A DNA stretch of 4,395 bases, taken from IMG/VR virus record IMGVR_UViG_2671180631_000010; one strand, 5' to 3'. Positions 1 through 4,395 of the stretch are shown here, piece by piece; within the stretch, counting starts at the first letter, position 1, and the number at the start of each line of letters is the position of its first letter. Below the pieces are notes generated by a model. The model was not told the origin of the DNA and did no database searches. It saw only the letters and a list, made by a program, of their open reading frames with translations. The position numbers were made by a program, and so were the translations under genes. Source of the stretch: a virus (taxonomy: Duplodnaviria > Heunggongvirae > Uroviricota > Caudoviricetes).

Positions 1-79
1 GCTTTGAACTCTTTAGAGTAACGTTGGGTTTTTCTGCTCATTATTAGCTCCTTCTGATGCCATTCTATTTCAGGAAGGA

Positions 80-343
80 GTGTCCGTTAAACTCAGGCTA
101 CCTCAGGTTATTCGCTTCTGGGCATGGGCGGATCAACAAATGATAGACGGTAATGCAGATTGTAACGCTCGCGGCGTTACAAAAAGTGCAATAGATCGCA
201 TCACTTTTATGTCTGGTTTTGCTGATGCGTTAATTCAGGTTGGATGGCTGGTCGAAAATGACGGAGGGCTTTCTCTACCTAACTTTGAACGTCATAACGG
301 AAAAAGCTCTAAAAAAAACGGGCGGTTACAAACGAGCGAGTAA
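80..343 (+). CDS. N-terminal fragment of a prophage replication initiator (putative origin-binding domain); likely one frameshifted gene with 447..782
   Basis: Frame-2 ORF from GTG 80 to TAA 341-343, preceded by purine-rich AGGAAGGAG at 72-80 (overlaps the GTG, so spacing is atypical; in-frame ATG at 140 is an alternative start). Frame has stops at 5-7 and 14-16, so it cannot begin further upstream. Ends inside an A8 run (311-318), after which the coding signal continues in frame 1. Confidence 0.6.
   Translation: MSVKLRLPQVIRFWAWADQQMIDGNADCNARGVTKSAIDRITFMSGFADALIQVGWLVENDGGLSLPNFERHNGKSSKKNGRLQTSE
162..180. repeat. 19-bp iteron-like palindrome GTAACGCTCGCGGCGTTAC (arms GTAACGC/GCGTTAC)
   Basis: Read directly; 16 of 19 positions identical to the second copy at 371-389. 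A GTAACG half-site also occurs at 18-23. Confidence 0.55.
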
Positions 344-370
344 CAAAAATACGCGAACTGAAACGAAAAG

Positions 371-389
371 GTAACGCTGCCAGCGTTAC
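371..389. repeat. 19-bp perfect palindrome GTAACGCTG-C-CAGCGTTAC (iteron-like), with half-sites at 322-330, 340-344 and 405-412
   Basis: Read directly; arms are exact reverse complements. Lies in the acidic-linker coding segment of the initiator next to A-rich tracts. Confidence 0.55.
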
Positions 390-446
390 ACAAACGGATC
401 AAAAAGCGTTACCAGAGGAAGAGGAAGAGGAAGATCTAAATACTGA

Positions 447-782
447 TCTCCCCCTCGCCAAAAACGAGCGTCTAAAAAATTCGAGCCGGAGGCTATTGAG
501 CTGCCCGATTGGTTGCCGGAAACACTCTGGCATGAGTGGGTCCGGTTCAGACAGGCATTGCGAAAACCGATTCGAACGGAGCAGGGCGCTAACGGGGCGA
601 TACGGGAACTGGAAAAATTCCGTCAGCAGGGTTTTACACCTGAGCAGGTGATTCGACACAGCATCGCCAATGAATACCAGGGCCTGTTCGCGCCGAAAGG
701 TGTTCGGCCTGAGACGTTGCTCCGACAGGTTAACACCGTCTCGTTGCCGGACAGTGCGATCCCGCCAGGCTTCAGGGGGTAA
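447..782 (+). CDS. C-terminal fragment of the replication initiator: DnaT-like C-terminal domain
   Basis: Frame 0 is open from 447 (after TGA 444-446) to TAA 780-782; the first canonical start in frame is TTG 513. The product ends ...NTVSLPDSAIPPGFRG, matching the C-terminal motif of E. coli primosomal protein DnaT (...NTVSEPDSQIPPGFRG) as recalled from memory. It sits 6 nt upstream of the DnaC-like gene, mirroring the chromosomal dnaT-dnaC arrangement. Confidence 0.65.
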   Translation, partial: SPPRQKRASKKFEPEAIELPDWLPETLWHEWVRFRQALRKPIRTEQGANGAIRELEKFRQQGFTPEQVIRHSIANEYQGLFAPKGVRPETLLRQVNTVSLPDSAIPPGFRG

Positions 783-1229: not shown

Positions 1230-1287
1230 NNNNNNNNNNNNNNNNNNNNNNNNNNNNNNNNNNNNNNNNNNNNNNNNNNNNNNNNNN
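1230..1287. other. 58-nt block of undetermined bases (N) inside the DnaC-like gene
   Basis: Seen directly. Confidence 1.
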
Positions 1288-1303
1288 AGTTTCAGGAGGA
1301 TTT

Positions 1304-1726
1304 ATGGCGAAACCTTTTACTCCCGAACAGCGGGAAGAACTGAAGACGCGAATTGTGGAACTCGTGCATCAGGACGGTCGGGTCACGATTCGGCAGTTGT
1401 CAGATGAAACAGGTATCAGTCGTGCGTCTGTCGGTCGCTTATGCATAGAACTGGTCGCAAGTGGTGATGTATATAATTCTGGCTACGGCTTATTCCCGTC
1501 TGAACAGGCTCGCAAGGACTGGCAAAGCGCCCGCAAAAAACTCTCGAGAGTAAAGGTGAGGAAACCGGTTGTTGTTGATCCGGACCTTATCTGGTCATTA
1601 CCTGACGGAGAAATACGCCGCTACGACAGGCGCCTGAATATAATCTGTCGCGAGTGCCGGAAGAGCGAAGCTATGCAGCGTGTACTGGCTTTCTATCAGG
1701 GTAATTTTCAGGAGGCGATACTGTGA
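1304..1726 (+). CDS. Winged-helix (HTH) DNA-binding protein, function unknown
   Basis: ATG 1304 preceded by AGGAGG at 1294-1299; 140 codons. The N-terminal ~60 aa (RVTIRQLSDETGISRASVGRLCIELVASGDV) has a winged-HTH pattern. Confidence 0.75.
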   Translation: MAKPFTPEQREELKTRIVELVHQDGRVTIRQLSDETGISRASVGRLCIELVASGDVYNSGYGLFPSEQARKDWQSARKKLSRVKVRKPVVVDPDLIWSLPDGEIRRYDRRLNIICRECRKSEAMQRVLAFYQGNFQEAIL

Positions 1727-2140
1727 ATGAAATTAGCTATCAGGCTTCAATTACCGCTGGCATTCGCATCAAAGGAGAGGAGCATGGAAATAAAACCAGA
1801 AGATGAGTTAAGCAATATCGTTTTATTTCCGGTAAAAGAGGATGACCCTCGTAATCAGGTTAATTTTCTTTATGAGCCATCGGAAAGACCATATTGCCAT
1901 CACGCCTCTGTACGGGTTGACGAAAAAGAGCGTCAGGTCCGCTGTAAAATCTGCGGTGCGGTTGTGGAGCCGTTTGACTGGATGCTCTCTGTGGCAAAAA
2001 GAGAAACCAGACTGGCAGATGATGTAAGGCTATTGCGCCAGGAGGAACAGGAAAGGCGGAGAAATATAGAAAAGCTGATACAGATTGAGCGTAACGCGAA
2101 AGCGCGGATACGCAGGGCGACAAAATCCAGAACTGAATAA
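1727..2140 (+). CDS. Zn-ribbon (C-H-H...C-x2-C) protein with basic coiled-coil C-terminus, function unknown
   Basis: ATG 1727 overlaps the upstream stop (TGAATG), indicating translational coupling, with AGGAGG at 1710-1715. An alternative, possibly better start is ATG 1784 with GGAGAGGAG at 1774-1782. Stop TAA 2138-2140. Motif YCHH...RCKICG. Confidence 0.7.
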   Translation: MKLAIRLQLPLAFASKERSMEIKPEDELSNIVLFPVKEDDPRNQVNFLYEPSERPYCHHASVRVDEKERQVRCKICGAVVEPFDWMLSVAKRETRLADDVRLLRQEEQERRRNIEKLIQIERNAKARIRRATKSRTE

Positions 2141-2167
2141 TTAAATTTAGCACTGTTAAAAATTTAA
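2141..2167. promoter_or_regulatory. AT-rich palindrome TTAAATTT-N11-AAATTTAA just after the stop codon; possible operator or protein-binding site
   Basis: Arms 2141-2148 and 2160-2167 are exact reverse complements. AT-only stem, so unlikely to be a stable terminator. Confidence 0.3.
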
Positions 2168-2287
2168 TCCTTAACCGGAGGGATTTCTGCACCCTCAAAT
2201 CATCAGGAGACCACCCGAAAGGGCGGGGAGCAGTCACACATCTGTTTCCGATAGCCCCGTTCTAATGCTACACTCTTTGATATTTTT

Positions 2288-2995: not shown

Positions 2996-3025
2996 TTGAT
3001 TTCATATTGGCGAGGTAAGTAGAAT
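2996..3025 (+). promoter_or_regulatory. Candidate sigma70 promoter: -35 TTGATT (2996-3001), 18-nt spacer, -10 TAGAAT (3020-3025)
   Basis: Hexamers read directly. Nearly identical to the motif at 3518-3545, including a GACT just downstream of the -10. Points into the N block. Confidence 0.35.
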
Positions 3026-3043
3026 GACTGCGGGTGCTTGAGG

Positions 3044-3080
3044 CTATCTGCTTCAGGCATGAACACCAAAAGGCAGATAG
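3044..3080. repeat. Inverted repeat CTATCTGC-N21-GCAGATAG
   Basis: 8-bp perfect arms at 3044-3051 and 3073-3080. Would lie in the 5' leader of a transcript from the 2996-3025 promoter; no U-tract follows, so not a terminator. Confidence 0.3.
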
Positions 3081-3133
3081 AGAAAAGCCCCAGTTAACAT
3101 TACGCGTCCGGCAAGACGCTTAACATTAATCTG

Positions 3134-3430
3134 NNNNNNNNNNNNNNNNNNNNNNNNNNNNNNNNNNNNNNNNNNNNNNNNNNNNNNNNNNNNNNNNNNN
3201 NNNNNNNNNNNNNNNNNNNNNNNNNNNNNNNNNNNNNNNNNNNNNNNNNNNNNNNNNNNNNNNNNNNNNNNNNNNNNNNNNNNNNNNNNNNNNNNNNNNN
3301 NNNNNNNNNNNNNNNNNNNNNNNNNNNNNNNNNNNNNNNNNNNNNNNNNNNNNNNNNNNNNNNNNNNNNNNNNNNNNNNNNNNNNNNNNNNNNNNNNNNN
3401 NNNNNNNNNNNNNNNNNNNNNNNNNNNNNN
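3134..3430. other. 297-nt block of undetermined bases (N)
   Basis: Seen directly. Flanked by a promoter-like motif upstream and a stop codon plus terminator downstream. Confidence 1.
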
Positions 3431-3454
3431 CATCCTCAACGCACCCGCACTTAA

Positions 3455-3497
3455 CCCGCCCATCGCTGTGATCTCTCAGCGTTTCGGCGGGTTTTTT
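3455..3497 (+). terminator. Rho-independent terminator
   Basis: GC stem CCCGCC (3455-3460) pairs with GGCGGG (3486-3491); inner stem CGCTG (3464-3468) pairs with CAGCG (3477-3481); followed by T6 (3492-3497). An in-frame TAA at 3452-3454 ends a + strand frame emerging from the N block immediately before the hairpin. Confidence 0.55.
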
Positions 3498-3517: not shown

Positions 3518-3545
3518 TTGATTCGCGCACCTTCGCAGATAGAAT
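3518..3545 (+). promoter_or_regulatory. Candidate sigma70 promoter: -35 TTGATT (3518-3523), 16-nt spacer, -10 TAGAAT (3540-3545)
   Basis: Hexamers read directly, located just downstream of the terminator and about 80 nt upstream of the ATG at 3627. Confidence 0.4.
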
Positions 3546-3626: not shown

Positions 3627-3914
3627 ATGAAAATCGAAGAATTGCGTGAAATTTTTAGTGAAAATGGCCTCTATGCTGTGCGCGTTGAGAATGGAGCGAT
3701 TGTCAGCCATTGCCGCATTAGATGTTTGCAATCTCAACAAAGGAAGAGCGGTGCTGTGTTATTTTATTTTTGTAATGGACTTCTGACGGACGGTTTTATT
3801 TTGCGTGAGGACGAATTTGTCACATCATTACGGGTTTTGAAAGAGATTGGTTTTAAGGCTGGTTTTCTGCTTTTGCTGAAGAATAAACTCATCTACAATC
3901 TTGAGCAGGATTGA
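3627..3914 (+). CDS. Hypothetical small protein (95 aa)
   Basis: ATG 3627 preceded by GGAAGGA at 3612-3618; stop TGA 3912-3914. Appears more AT-rich than neighbouring genes. No recognisable motif. Confidence 0.5.
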   Translation: MKIEELREIFSENGLYAVRVENGAIVSHCRIRCLQSQQRKSGAVLFYFCNGLLTDGFILREDEFVTSLRVLKEIGFKAGFLLLLKNKLIYNLEQD

Positions 3915-3952: not shown

Positions 3953-4306
3953 ATGGCACATATACAACTGGTCAAACAAACCTCTTCCGGATTACTTCTC
4001 CCGGCGACGCCGGAGAGTTGCGATTTTCTGCATCAAATCAAAATAGGTGAGTGGATACACGCAGACTTTAAGCGTGTGTGTAACTACGCATTCCACAAGC
4101 GTTTTTTCAAACTCCTGCAACTGGGTTTCGATTACTGGACTCCGGTCGGTGGGGCGATCACGCCTCGCGAACGAAAACTGGTGTCCGGTTTCGTTGATTA
4201 CCTGTGTGAATCAGTAGGCCGGGAACATACGCCAGCTCTGAGCGAAGCCGCAGAGCAATTGAGGTGTACTGGCAATAGCGGACACTACCATTTGTTCTTT
4301 TTTTAA
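3953..4306 (+). CDS. Hypothetical protein, probably a lambdoid nin-region-type protein of unknown function; possibly truncated at a T7 run
   Basis: ATG 3953 preceded by GGAG at 3942-3945 (the track's TTG 3911 start is less likely). Stop TAA 4304-4306 lies at the end of a T7 run (4298-4304); the adjacent frame stays open to the window end. Confidence 0.6.
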   Translation: MAHIQLVKQTSSGLLLPATPESCDFLHQIKIGEWIHADFKRVCNYAFHKRFFKLLQLGFDYWTPVGGAITPRERKLVSGFVDYLCESVGREHTPALSEAAEQLRCTGNSGHYHLFFF

Positions 4307-4317
4307 GCAGCCATCTG

Positions 4318-4395
4318 ATGATATTTTTCCCTGAAGGCTGCCGGGGAGATATTCCCCAGACGAGAGTGACGACGCTGACGATTGTAGAAAATCTC
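4318..4395 (+). CDS. Partial ORF running off the window end (MIFFPEGCRGDIPQTRVTTL...); either a separate gene or the frameshifted continuation of 3953..4306
   Basis: Frame 1 is open from 4279 to the window end with ATG at 4318; no clear Shine-Dalgarno. Confidence 0.25.
   Translation, partial: MIFFPEGCRGDIPQTRVTTLTIVENL

What the first reader, a model, noticed from the sequence alone, without database searches (positions are those of the whole stretch)
2996..3497. Hidden + strand transcription unit across the 297-nt N block
Upstream of the Ns is a promoter-like TTGATT-N18-TAGAAT (2996-3025). Immediately downstream, a + strand frame ends with TAA at 3452-3454 (visible tail ...HPQRTRT) and is followed at once by a strong intrinsic terminator (3455-3497). 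On the other strand, a frame emerging from the Ns ends at 3053 with a hydrophobic tail (...RVMLTGAFLYLPFGVHA). The block therefore most likely conceals a small + strand gene or sRNA, and possibly a divergent small membrane-protein gene. Given the adjacent tRNA-modification-type gene, tRNA genes are also conceivable but are not supported by the flanks.
Basis: inference. Interest (0 to 1): 0.5.

Follow-up and report, generated by a model that had tools for sequence, protein, structure and literature searches.

The report
Prophage hok/sok toxin-antitoxin locus behind Ns
The run of Ns sits in the middle of an ordinary, well-known hok/mok/sok type I toxin-antitoxin locus of a decayed Rac-like prophage: a small membrane toxin gene on the + strand, kept silent by its own mRNA folding and by a short antisense RNA on the - strand.

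Summary
Its main inference also holds: a + strand transcript runs from about 3032 to about 3497.

- **What it is.** The unit is a hokD-type hok/mok/sok type I toxin-antitoxin locus.
- **Left flank.** 3032-3133 matches the Rfam hok-leader model RF01794 (58.7 bits, E 1e-11, cut off by the Ns).
- **Right flank.** 3434-3446 is the fold-back inhibitory (fbi) element. It pairs with the mRNA 5' end (tac, 3032-3043). A rho-independent terminator follows at 3453-3497.
- **What the Ns hide.** In the nearest relatives (flanks 99.6-100% identical) the flanks bracket 277 nt. These carry the mok start, the Sok promoter and a 51-aa Hok toxin (Pfam HOK_GEF, E 4e-23). All ten other loci recovered with these exact flank ends also hold a mok/hok core, of 270, 277 or 279 nt.
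- **What was wrong.** The "...HPQRTRT" frame is untranslated 3' UTR, only 10 codons open once the gap is filled. The hydrophobic - strand frame is the antisense of the hok leader; the real - strand product is Sok RNA. No tRNA genes are present.
- **N-run lengths.** They do not track real lengths (297 N for 277 nt; 58 N for 304 nt).

Verdict: already known and common in lambdoid prophages. Low interest.

The parts
2996..3025 (+). Predicted hok promoter: -35 TTGATT (2996-3001), 18-nt spacer, -10 TAGAAT (3020-3025)
   Evidence: Consensus scan, 9 of 12 matches. A -10-like hexamer sits at the same distance from the mRNA 5' end in all 14 hok loci compared, while the -35 region varies. The same site is found in L001.
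3032..3133 (+). Visible 5' leader of the hok (mok-hok) mRNA. The predicted 5' end is G3032.
   Evidence: Rfam RF01794 matches model positions 1-83 of 157 at 58.7 bits, E 1.1e-11, cut off by the Ns. The same model matches full length at 117 bits in the 99.8%-identical relative and ends at the hokD ATG. The visible leader folds at -35.2 kcal/mol, z = -4.1.
3032..3043 (+). tac (translational activator) element, GGGTGCTTGAGG
   Evidence: It pairs with 3434-3446 in the minimum-free-energy fold of the reconstructed 446-nt mRNA. In 5' fragments it pairs instead with ucb at 3085-3091.
3085..3091 (+). ucb (upstream complementary box, anti-SD), AAGCCCC
   Evidence: It pairs with the mok SD (GAGG, starting at G3133) in the full-length fold, and with tac in the 5' fragment folds. 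These roles follow the R1 model in PMC9841398.
3093..3130 (+). Sok-target hairpin of the hok leader, carrying a 20-nt insertion that forms an extra stem relative to R1-type loci
   Evidence: Rfam alignment and folds. The insertion is seen in the alignment against R1-type loci L013 and L014.
3134..3430 (+). N block. Inferred hidden content: rest of the mok SD, mok start, dcb, hok SD, the 51-aa hok ORF sharing its stop with a 70-aa mok ORF, and a 3' stem-loop. On the - strand: the Sok promoter and about the first 19 nt of Sok.
   Evidence: The nearest relatives L001, L004 and L005 (flanks 99.6-100% identical) hold 277 nt here. The encoded protein matches Pfam HOK_GEF at E 4.3e-23 and PHROG 251 at E 1e-32. 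mok and hok are annotated in frame with a shared stop in phage Rac-SA53. This is an inference for the window itself.
3079..3133 (-). Visible 3' part (about 55 nt) of the predicted Sok antisense antitoxin RNA. The predicted whole RNA is about 74 nt and ends in GGGGCUUUUCUCU.
   Evidence: A - strand promoter, TTGCCT-17 nt-TAACCT, is conserved across 12 loci including R1-type plasmids. The predicted RNA folds as an 8-nt 5' tail plus a long stem-loop at -30.2 kcal/mol. R1 Sok has a 5' tail plus stem-loop and is 64 nt (PMC1635323). The ends are predicted, not mapped.
3434..3446 (+). fbi (fold-back inhibitory) element, CCTCAACGCACCC
   Evidence: 12 base pairs and one bulge with tac. Duplex energy is -21.5 kcal/mol against -14.1 +/- 2.8 for shuffles, and 23 of 2000 shuffles reach it. 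A tac/fbi duplex is found in 13 of 14 loci. Both arms differ between hokD-type and R1-type loci yet stay complementary.
3453..3497 (+). Rho-independent terminator of the hok mRNA: interrupted hairpin 3453-3493 plus T6 at 3492-3497
   Evidence: -24.2 kcal/mol, z = -5.5, 0 of 200 shuffles fold as well. Other hokD-type alleles have a shorter hairpin at the same place.

Best explanation
**What it is.** The N block interrupts a hokD-type hok/mok/sok type I toxin-antitoxin locus. It lies between queH and a 95-aa ORF of unknown function, in a decayed Rac-like lambdoid prophage fragment bounded by IS600.

**How it works.** The steps below follow the plasmid R1 model (PMC9841398). The sequence elements are shown here, some directly in the window and some only in relatives; their activity is inferred.

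1. A promoter at 2996-3025 makes a roughly 446-nt mRNA on the + strand, from about 3032 to about 3497.
2. In the full-length mRNA the 5' tac element (3032-3043) pairs with the 3' fbi element (3434-3446). The upstream box ucb (3085-3091) then sequesters the mok Shine-Dalgarno sequence. In this state the mRNA is neither translated nor bound by Sok.
3. Slow 3' trimming removes the terminator and fbi. The 5' end refolds into tac/ucb and SD/dcb stems, which exposes mok.
4. Hok translation is coupled to mok translation. Here mok is an in-frame start 57 nt upstream of hok.
5. A short unstable antisense RNA, Sok, is made from the - strand. Its promoter is hidden in the Ns and its body is visible at about 3133 down to 3079. 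Sok pairs with the mok initiation region and the duplex is cut by RNase III.
6. When Sok is no longer replenished, Hok (51 aa) is made, inserts into the inner membrane and kills or lyses the cell. Sok supply could stop on loss of the element, on transcription shut-off or on prophage induction.

**Likely role.** Stabilising the prophage, helping lysis and phage release as shown for hokW-sokW, or acting in phage exclusion.
For: **Direct, in the window.**
- The Rfam hok-leader model RF01794 matches 3032-3132 on the + strand at E 1.1e-11.
- tac and fbi, both visible in the window flanks, are complementary, and pair in the minimum-free-energy fold of the reconstructed mRNA.
- The terminator has z = -5.5.
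- The promoter is at the expected distance from the mRNA 5' end.

**From relatives.**
- L001, L004 and L005 have flanks 99.6-100% identical to the window and hold a 277-nt mok/hok core.
- NCBI's annotation pipeline (PGAP, used for RefSeq records) names the gene hokD.
- The encoded protein matches Pfam HOK_GEF at E 4e-23.
- RF01794 matches full length at 105-122 bits in 14 loci.
- mok and hok share a stop and are in frame.
- The Sok promoter is conserved across 12 loci.
- Folds of the reconstructed mRNA show both the closed state (tac/fbi, ucb/SD) and the alternative state (tac/ucb, SD/dcb).
- All ten other loci recovered with the exact flank ends hold a mok/hok core of 270, 277 or 279 nt.

**From the literature.**
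- The regulatory model is described in PMC9841398.
- Sok architecture is described in PMC1635323.
- Function of a prophage hok locus is shown in PMC8621323.
- Enrichment of hok in prophages is reported in bioRxiv 10.1101/2025.08.07.668861.
Against: - The toxin ORF, the mok start and the Sok promoter cannot be seen in this window. They are inferred from relatives.
- The N run is 297 nt, but no allele of that length was found. Alleles of 270, 277 and 279 nt were found.
- The visible Rfam hit is 0.3 bits below the curated gathering score (58.7 against 59), because half of the model lies in the Ns.
- The minimum-free-energy fold of 3'-truncated versions of the reconstructed mRNA did not spontaneously give the 'open' tac/ucb form. 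It gave a local tac hairpin instead.
- The predicted Sok -10 (TAACCT) is a weak consensus match and was not picked up by the promoter scan.
- According to the bioRxiv survey, earlier work found that several chromosomal hok loci did not mediate post-segregational killing. Activity of this copy, which sits in a decaying prophage, is therefore unproven.
Confidence: 0.9

Rival explanations
1. The locus is a dead remnant. The flanks are hok/sok-derived, but in this genome the hidden core is disrupted by a frameshift, deletion, insertion or IS element, so no functional toxin-antitoxin pair is made.
For: The surrounding prophage is clearly decaying. IS600 ends truncate it on both sides. The replication-initiator-like gene carries a +2 and a -10 nt frameshift. 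DUF1367 is cut at codon 102. The N run (297) does not equal any allele length found. Earlier work suggested that chromosomal hok loci are often inactive (bioRxiv 10.1101/2025.08.07.668861).
Against: All visible regulatory parts are intact and identical to relatives whose cores are intact: promoter, tac, ucb, Sok-target hairpin, fbi and terminator. N-run lengths are demonstrably unreliable in this window, since 58 N stand for 304 nt. An IS insertion would be far longer than 297 nt.
Confidence: 0.08
2. One reading: a different small + strand protein gene whose frame ends at TAA 3452-3454, plus a divergent - strand small membrane-protein gene ending at 3053.
For: Both frames are open where they emerge from the Ns.
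Against: With the relatives' sequence the + frame is open for only 10 codons without a start, and the - frame for 29 codons without a start. The segment 3434-3446 is accounted for as fbi RNA structure. The segment 3053-3133 is accounted for as the hok leader and the sok gene.
Confidence: 0.01
3. tRNA genes or another structured sRNA are hidden in the gap, for example something linked to the adjacent queH.
For: Lambdoid prophages do carry tRNA clusters. L001 has four tRNA genes about 2 kb downstream.
Against: ARAGORN finds no tRNA in the window or in the filled relative region. In the filled region the only credible Rfam hit is RF01794.
Confidence: 0.01

Closest known systems
hokD (relF)-type hok/sok loci of E. 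coli and Shigella lambdoid prophages, e.g. phage Rac-SA53 mok/hok and PGAP 'type I toxin-antitoxin system toxin HokD'
   Same: The leader, tac/fbi sequences, mok/hok arrangement and Sok promoter are the same. The flanks are 99.6-100% identical to E. coli FDAARGOS_944, E. coli ECMA0423 and S. flexneri SFBU1023. The position is also the same, in the nin-like region upstream of the DUF1367, DUF1364 and Q-like genes.
   Different: The 277-nt allele of the nearest relatives encodes a C-terminal variant...VAVFVDYESRK, instead of ...VAVFTAYEPEE in the 270-nt alleles. The window's terminator hairpin has an inserted inner stem that the 270-nt alleles lack. From my own knowledge, not tested here: the K-12 hokD copy in Qin is reported to be rearranged behind relBE (Pedersen and Gerdes 1999), whereas this copy keeps its own promoter and leader.
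hok/sok (parB) of plasmid R1, the reference system
   Same: Same architecture: tac/fbi 5'-3' pairing, ucb/mok-SD/dcb boxes, mok overlapping hok, an antisense Sok with a promoter inside mok, and a terminator after fbi (model in PMC9841398).
   Different: Sequence similarity to R1-type loci is confined to about 50-80 nt around dcb and the hok start. Both the tac and fbi arms differ in sequence: GGGUGCUU/AA-C-GCACCC here against GGCGCUU/AAGCGCC. The Sok and Sok-target hairpin is 20 nt longer, giving a predicted Sok of about 74 nt against 64 nt.
hokW-sokW of Stx2 prophage Sp5 (EHEC O157 Sakai)
   Same: A hok-family type I toxin-antitoxin system carried in a lambdoid prophage, with a 51-aa toxin. 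The relatives' Hok matches PHROG 251 'MokW-like host killing' at E 1e-32.
   Different: It is a different allele and prophage. The Stx phages matched only the downstream 95-aa ORF region at the DNA level. The role shown for hokW-sokW, assisting lysis and phage release after mitomycin C (PMC8621323), cannot apply to phage production from this IS-truncated remnant.

Membership tests
[quoted passage not shown] | 5' leader of the hok mRNA with the conserved sequence and structure (tac stem, Sok-target hairpin) | tested here: met
   Window 3032-3132 on the + strand matches RF01794 positions 1-83 at 58.7 bits, E 1.1e-11. This is 0.3 bits under the gathering score only because the Ns cut the match. 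The match is full length at 117 bits in the 99.8%-identical relative.
[quoted passage not shown] | Long-range 5'-3' pairing: the tac element at the mRNA 5' end is complementary to an fbi element just upstream of the terminator | tested here: met
   Both arms are visible in the window, at 3032-3043 and 3434-3446. They form 12 bp plus one bulge at -21.5 kcal/mol, and 23 of 2000 shuffles reach that value. They pair in the minimum-free-energy fold of the reconstructed mRNA. The pairing is present in 13 of 14 loci, with both arms changed between subfamilies.
[quoted passage not shown] | Hok/Gef-family small hydrophobic toxin ORF of about 50 aa | not testable with these tools
   It is hidden by the Ns in the window. 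In the nearest relatives the 51-aa ORF matches PF01848 at 81 bits, E 4.3e-23, and the NCBIfam Hok subfamily at E 5.5e-15, which is below that model's cut-off. For the window this is an inference.
[quoted passage not shown] | A mok reading frame overlapping hok, with its SD sequestered by ucb and alternatively by dcb | tested here: inconclusive
   ucb (3085-3091) and the first G of the mok SD (3133) are visible. The mok ATG, dcb and the rest are hidden. In relatives mok starts 57 nt upstream of hok, in frame, with a shared stop. Folds show both ucb/SD and SD/dcb pairings.
[quoted passage not shown] | A cis-encoded antisense Sok RNA with its own promoter, complementary to the mok initiation region | tested here: inconclusive
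   About 55 nt of the predicted Sok body lies in the visible flank (3133 down to 3079, - strand). The promoter TTGCCT-17 nt-TAACCT lies in the hidden part. It is conserved in 12 related loci including R1-type plasmids. The predicted fold has a 5' tail plus stem-loop, as in R1 Sok. No transcript data are available.
[quoted passage not shown] | Toxicity of Hok and neutralisation by Sok (killing after transcription shut-off or loss of the element) | not testable with these tools
   This needs experiments. According to the bioRxiv survey, HokD and 42 of 45 tested homologues were toxic on overexpression.

The most novel reading that the evidence does not exclude
The true sequence behind the Ns might not be the standard 270-279-nt mok/hok core. 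It could be a roughly 20-nt longer or otherwise rearranged allele, for example a duplication in the mok/Sok-promoter region like the 9-nt duplication seen in L015. Such a change could alter the Sok-mok pairing or the coupling of mok and hok translation.
Probability: 0.05. Interest if true: 0.15.

Novelty: already known. Interest (0 to 1): 0.08.

Why it matters
It matters little beyond annotation. The result explains both flanks of the gap and shows that the apparent coding tails are RNA regulatory elements (fbi, the hok leader and sok). It also flags that the N runs in this record do not preserve length.

One practical lesson follows for automated scans. hok loci are short multi-copy repeats: three copies at about 89-91% identity occur in one S. 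flexneri genome. They may be prone to being gapped or masked. With half of the locus hidden, the Rfam hit falls just under the gathering threshold, so a default scan would miss it.

Tried and rejected
1. tRNA genes. ARAGORN found none in the window or in the filled relative region.

2. The + frame ending at TAA 3452-3454 and the - frame ending at 3053 as genes. Filled with the relatives' sequence they are open for only 10 and 29 codons, and neither has a start codon.

3. A 297-nt allele that would match the N-run length. A genome-contig scan allowing a 270-300 nt gap gave only 270 and 277 nt. A viral-contig scan allowing 278-305 nt gave one locus of 279 nt, with a 9-nt duplication. None was 297 nt.

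4. Length preservation by the Ns. This was rejected: the other block, 1230-1287 (58 N), stands for 304 nt in L001 and L005.

5. An RNA feature behind the first N block. Rfam found nothing in L001 1600-2100.

6. Minimum-free-energy folding of 3'-truncated mRNAs, to reproduce the 'open' translatable conformation. The tac/ucb plus SD/dcb form appears only in 5' fragments of up to 140 nt. Truncated molecules of 360-382 nt folded tac into a local hairpin. I therefore do not claim that the switch is reproduced in silico.

7. Formal pair counting on the MAFFT alignment A1. I did not run it, because MAFFT misaligned the 3' UTR of the R1-type loci. I used a per-locus duplex search instead.

8. The simple promoter scan for the Sok promoter. 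It did not detect it, because the site scores 7 of 12, below the tool's threshold. The site was identified instead by conserved position in the alignment.

Full report
**Context**

The 4395-nt window is a fragment of a Rac-like lambdoid prophage. It carries:
- a replication-initiator-like ORF;
- a ydaV/DnaC-like ATPase gene;
- a DUF977 (Ren-like) gene;
- a 118-aa ORF;
- queH (Pfam PF02677, E 2e-65);
- the N block;
- a 95-aa ORF (PHROG 340, unknown function);
- a truncated DUF1367 gene.

Both ends of the window are IS600 termini, at 1-105 and 4260-4395. The closest relatives are:
- E. coli FDAARGOS_944 (L001), 99.8-99.9% identical over the flanks;
- E. coli ECMA0423 (L004);
- Shigella flexneri SFBU1023 (L005), 99.6-100% identical over the flanks. 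It also has IS600 in DUF1367, but inserted 61 nt further along.

**Observation check**

- Promoter. TTGATT-N18-TAGAAT at 2996-3025 is found by the scan. Such matches are as frequent as chance in this window, 4 against 3.7 expected. Its meaning comes from conservation: a -10-like hexamer lies at the same distance upstream of the mRNA 5' end in all 14 hok loci examined.
- Terminator. The hairpin at 3453-3493 plus T6 is strong: -24.2 kcal/mol, z = -5.5, and 0 of 200 shuffles fold as well.
- The two open frames at the edges of the Ns exist in the sequence. The next section shows that they are not coding.

**What is there**

Left flank. An Rfam scan of the window gives a single hit. RF01794 (named 'sok') matches 3032-3132 on the + strand, model positions 1-83 of 157, at 58.7 bits and E 1.1e-11, and is cut off by the Ns. 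In L001 the same model matches full length at 117 bits and ends exactly at the annotated hokD ATG. The Rfam model therefore represents the sense strand of the hok mRNA leader, despite its name. Thirteen further loci score 105-122 bits.

Hidden core. In L001, L004 and L005 the window's flanks bracket 277 nt. That sequence carries:
- GAGG-N7-ATG, the mok SD and start;
- 57 nt further on and in frame, the hok ATG;
- a 51-aa ORF, MKQQKAMLIALIVICLTVIVTALVTRKDLCEVRIRTGQTEVAVFVDYESRK.

This ORF matches Pfam HOK_GEF at E 4.3e-23 and PHROG 251 'MokW-like host killing' at E 1e-32. Phage Rac-SA53 annotates mok and hok with the same in-frame layout and a shared stop. All ten other loci found with the exact flank ends hold a mok/hok core of 270, 277 or 279 nt. 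They come from E. albertii, E. ruysiae, E. coli, S. flexneri (three copies), and one viral contig.

Right flank. CCTCAACGCACCC at 3434-3446 is complementary to the mRNA 5' end, GGGTGCTTGAGG at 3032-3043, forming 12 bp with one bulge.
- Duplex energy is -21.5 kcal/mol against -14.1 +/- 2.8 for shuffles; 23 of 2000 shuffles reach it.
- The two segments pair in the minimum-free-energy structure of the reconstructed 446-nt transcript.
- This is the tac/fbi fold-back interaction that characterises hok mRNAs (PMC9841398).
- It is found in 13 of 14 loci. Between hokD-type and R1-type loci both arms differ (GGGUGCUU/AA-C-GCACCC against GGCGCUU/AAGCGCC) yet remain complementary.

The two frames. With the gap filled from L005, the + frame ending at TAA 3452-3454 is open for only 10 codons. 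The - frame ending at 3053 is open for only 29 codons. Neither has a start codon.

The - strand. An alignment of 12 loci shows a conserved promoter, TTGCCT-17 nt-TA(A/T)CCT, inside the mok region. It is therefore hidden in the window. From it I predict an antisense RNA of about 74 nt. Its first 19 nt or so are hidden. Its last 55 nt or so are visible at 3133 down to about 3079 and end in GGGGCUUUUCUCU. The predicted RNA folds as a short 5' tail plus a long stem-loop at -30.2 kcal/mol. R1 Sok, at 64 nt, has the same design (PMC1635323). Compared with R1-type loci, the hairpin carries a 20-nt insertion.

**Mechanism**

The elements are shown; the dynamics are inferred from the R1 model.

- The full-length fold shows tac/fbi pairing, and ucb (3085-3091) pairing with the mok SD. 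This is the closed, untranslatable state.
- 5' fragments fold with tac paired to ucb and the mok SD paired to dcb (CCUC). This is the alternative state.
- Minimum-free-energy folding of 3'-trimmed molecules did not reproduce the open state. I do not claim the switch has been demonstrated here.
- By homology, 3' trimming activates the mRNA and Sok binding followed by RNase III cleavage removes it. Hok is made only when Sok is depleted.
- In a lambdoid prophage, hokW-sokW has been shown to assist lysis and phage release after induction (PMC8621323).
- hok genes are four-fold enriched in prophages (bioRxiv 10.1101/2025.08.07.668861).

**The N runs**

The 297 Ns correspond to 277 nt in the nearest relatives. 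The other run, 58 Ns at 1230-1287, corresponds to 304 nt of the ydaV 3' end. N length is therefore not informative.

Both runs lie in segments that are repeated between paralogous prophages. The whole hok transcription unit recurs at 89-91% identity in two other places of the S. flexneri genome, and the region spanning the first block (L005 segment 916-2359, block at 1117-1420) matches a second prophage copy there. To the right of that block, window 1288-2226 is 99.5% identical to that copy. This fits assembly gaps or masking at repeats, but I could not decide between the two.

**Verdict**

This is a known, very common element. The hok mRNA query alone matched 1523 plasmid records, and the survey catalogues 44,248 Hok homologues. 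The proposed stop codon, the - strand membrane-protein gene and the tRNA alternative were not.

Noticed in passing
window 1-105 and 4260-4395: Both ends of the window are IS600 (IS3-family) termini in the same orientation. The 5' end of the replication-initiator-like gene is cut off at window 105, and DUF1367 is cut after codon 102. The window looks like a whole short contig bounded by IS copies. In S. flexneri SFBU1023 (L005) the IS600 junction in DUF1367 lies 61 nt further along, so the insertions are independent or the region was rearranged.
   Followed up: partly
window 1230-1287: This second N run (58 N) lies inside the ydaV/DnaC-like gene. In L001 and L005 the same flanks bracket 304 nt, so N-run lengths in this record do not preserve real length. 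No Rfam feature lies in the corresponding relative sequence.
   Followed up: yes
window 80-782: The replication-initiator-like gene (a 262-aa 'hypothetical protein' in L001) is a pseudogene here. It is truncated at the 5' end by IS600, has two extra A in a poly-A run at 311-312, and has a 10-nt deletion at 449. These changes split it into the 80-343 and 513-782 ORFs.
   Followed up: yes
window 3518-3545: A second promoter-like site, TTGATT-N16-TAGAAT, has the same two hexamers as the hok promoter. It lies just downstream of the hok terminator and about 80 nt upstream of the 95-aa ORF at 3627-3914 (PHROG 340, unknown function; no Pfam or NCBIfam hit).
   Followed up: partly
window 3032-3132; L001 3745-3920: Rfam RF01794 is named 'sok antitoxin', but it aligns to the sense strand of the hok mRNA leader, from the mRNA 5' end to the hok AUG. 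Strand calls taken from this family name would place Sok on the wrong strand.
   Followed up: yes
window 3461-3485: The hok terminator hairpin here and in L001 contains an inserted inner stem-loop (about 20-25 nt, including CGCTG...CAGCG). The 270-nt hokD-type alleles have instead a simple CCCGC-TTCG-GCGGG hairpin.
   Followed up: no
L001 about 4050-4056 (hidden part of the window): The Tyr47 codon of the relatives' hokD allele sits in a UACG context (GAC TAC GAA). The bioRxiv Hok survey says hokD mRNA, like hokB, undergoes TadA A-to-I editing that recodes Tyr to Cys. The match of this context to the TadA recognition motif comes from my own recall and was not tested.
   Followed up: no
L003 7669-7870 and L007 6470-6671: The paralogous prophage copies in E. 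coli ECMA0423 and S. flexneri carry isrK, C4 antisense RNA and c4-a1b1 Rfam hits about 3 kb downstream of their hok loci. The window ends before any equivalent region.
   Followed up: no
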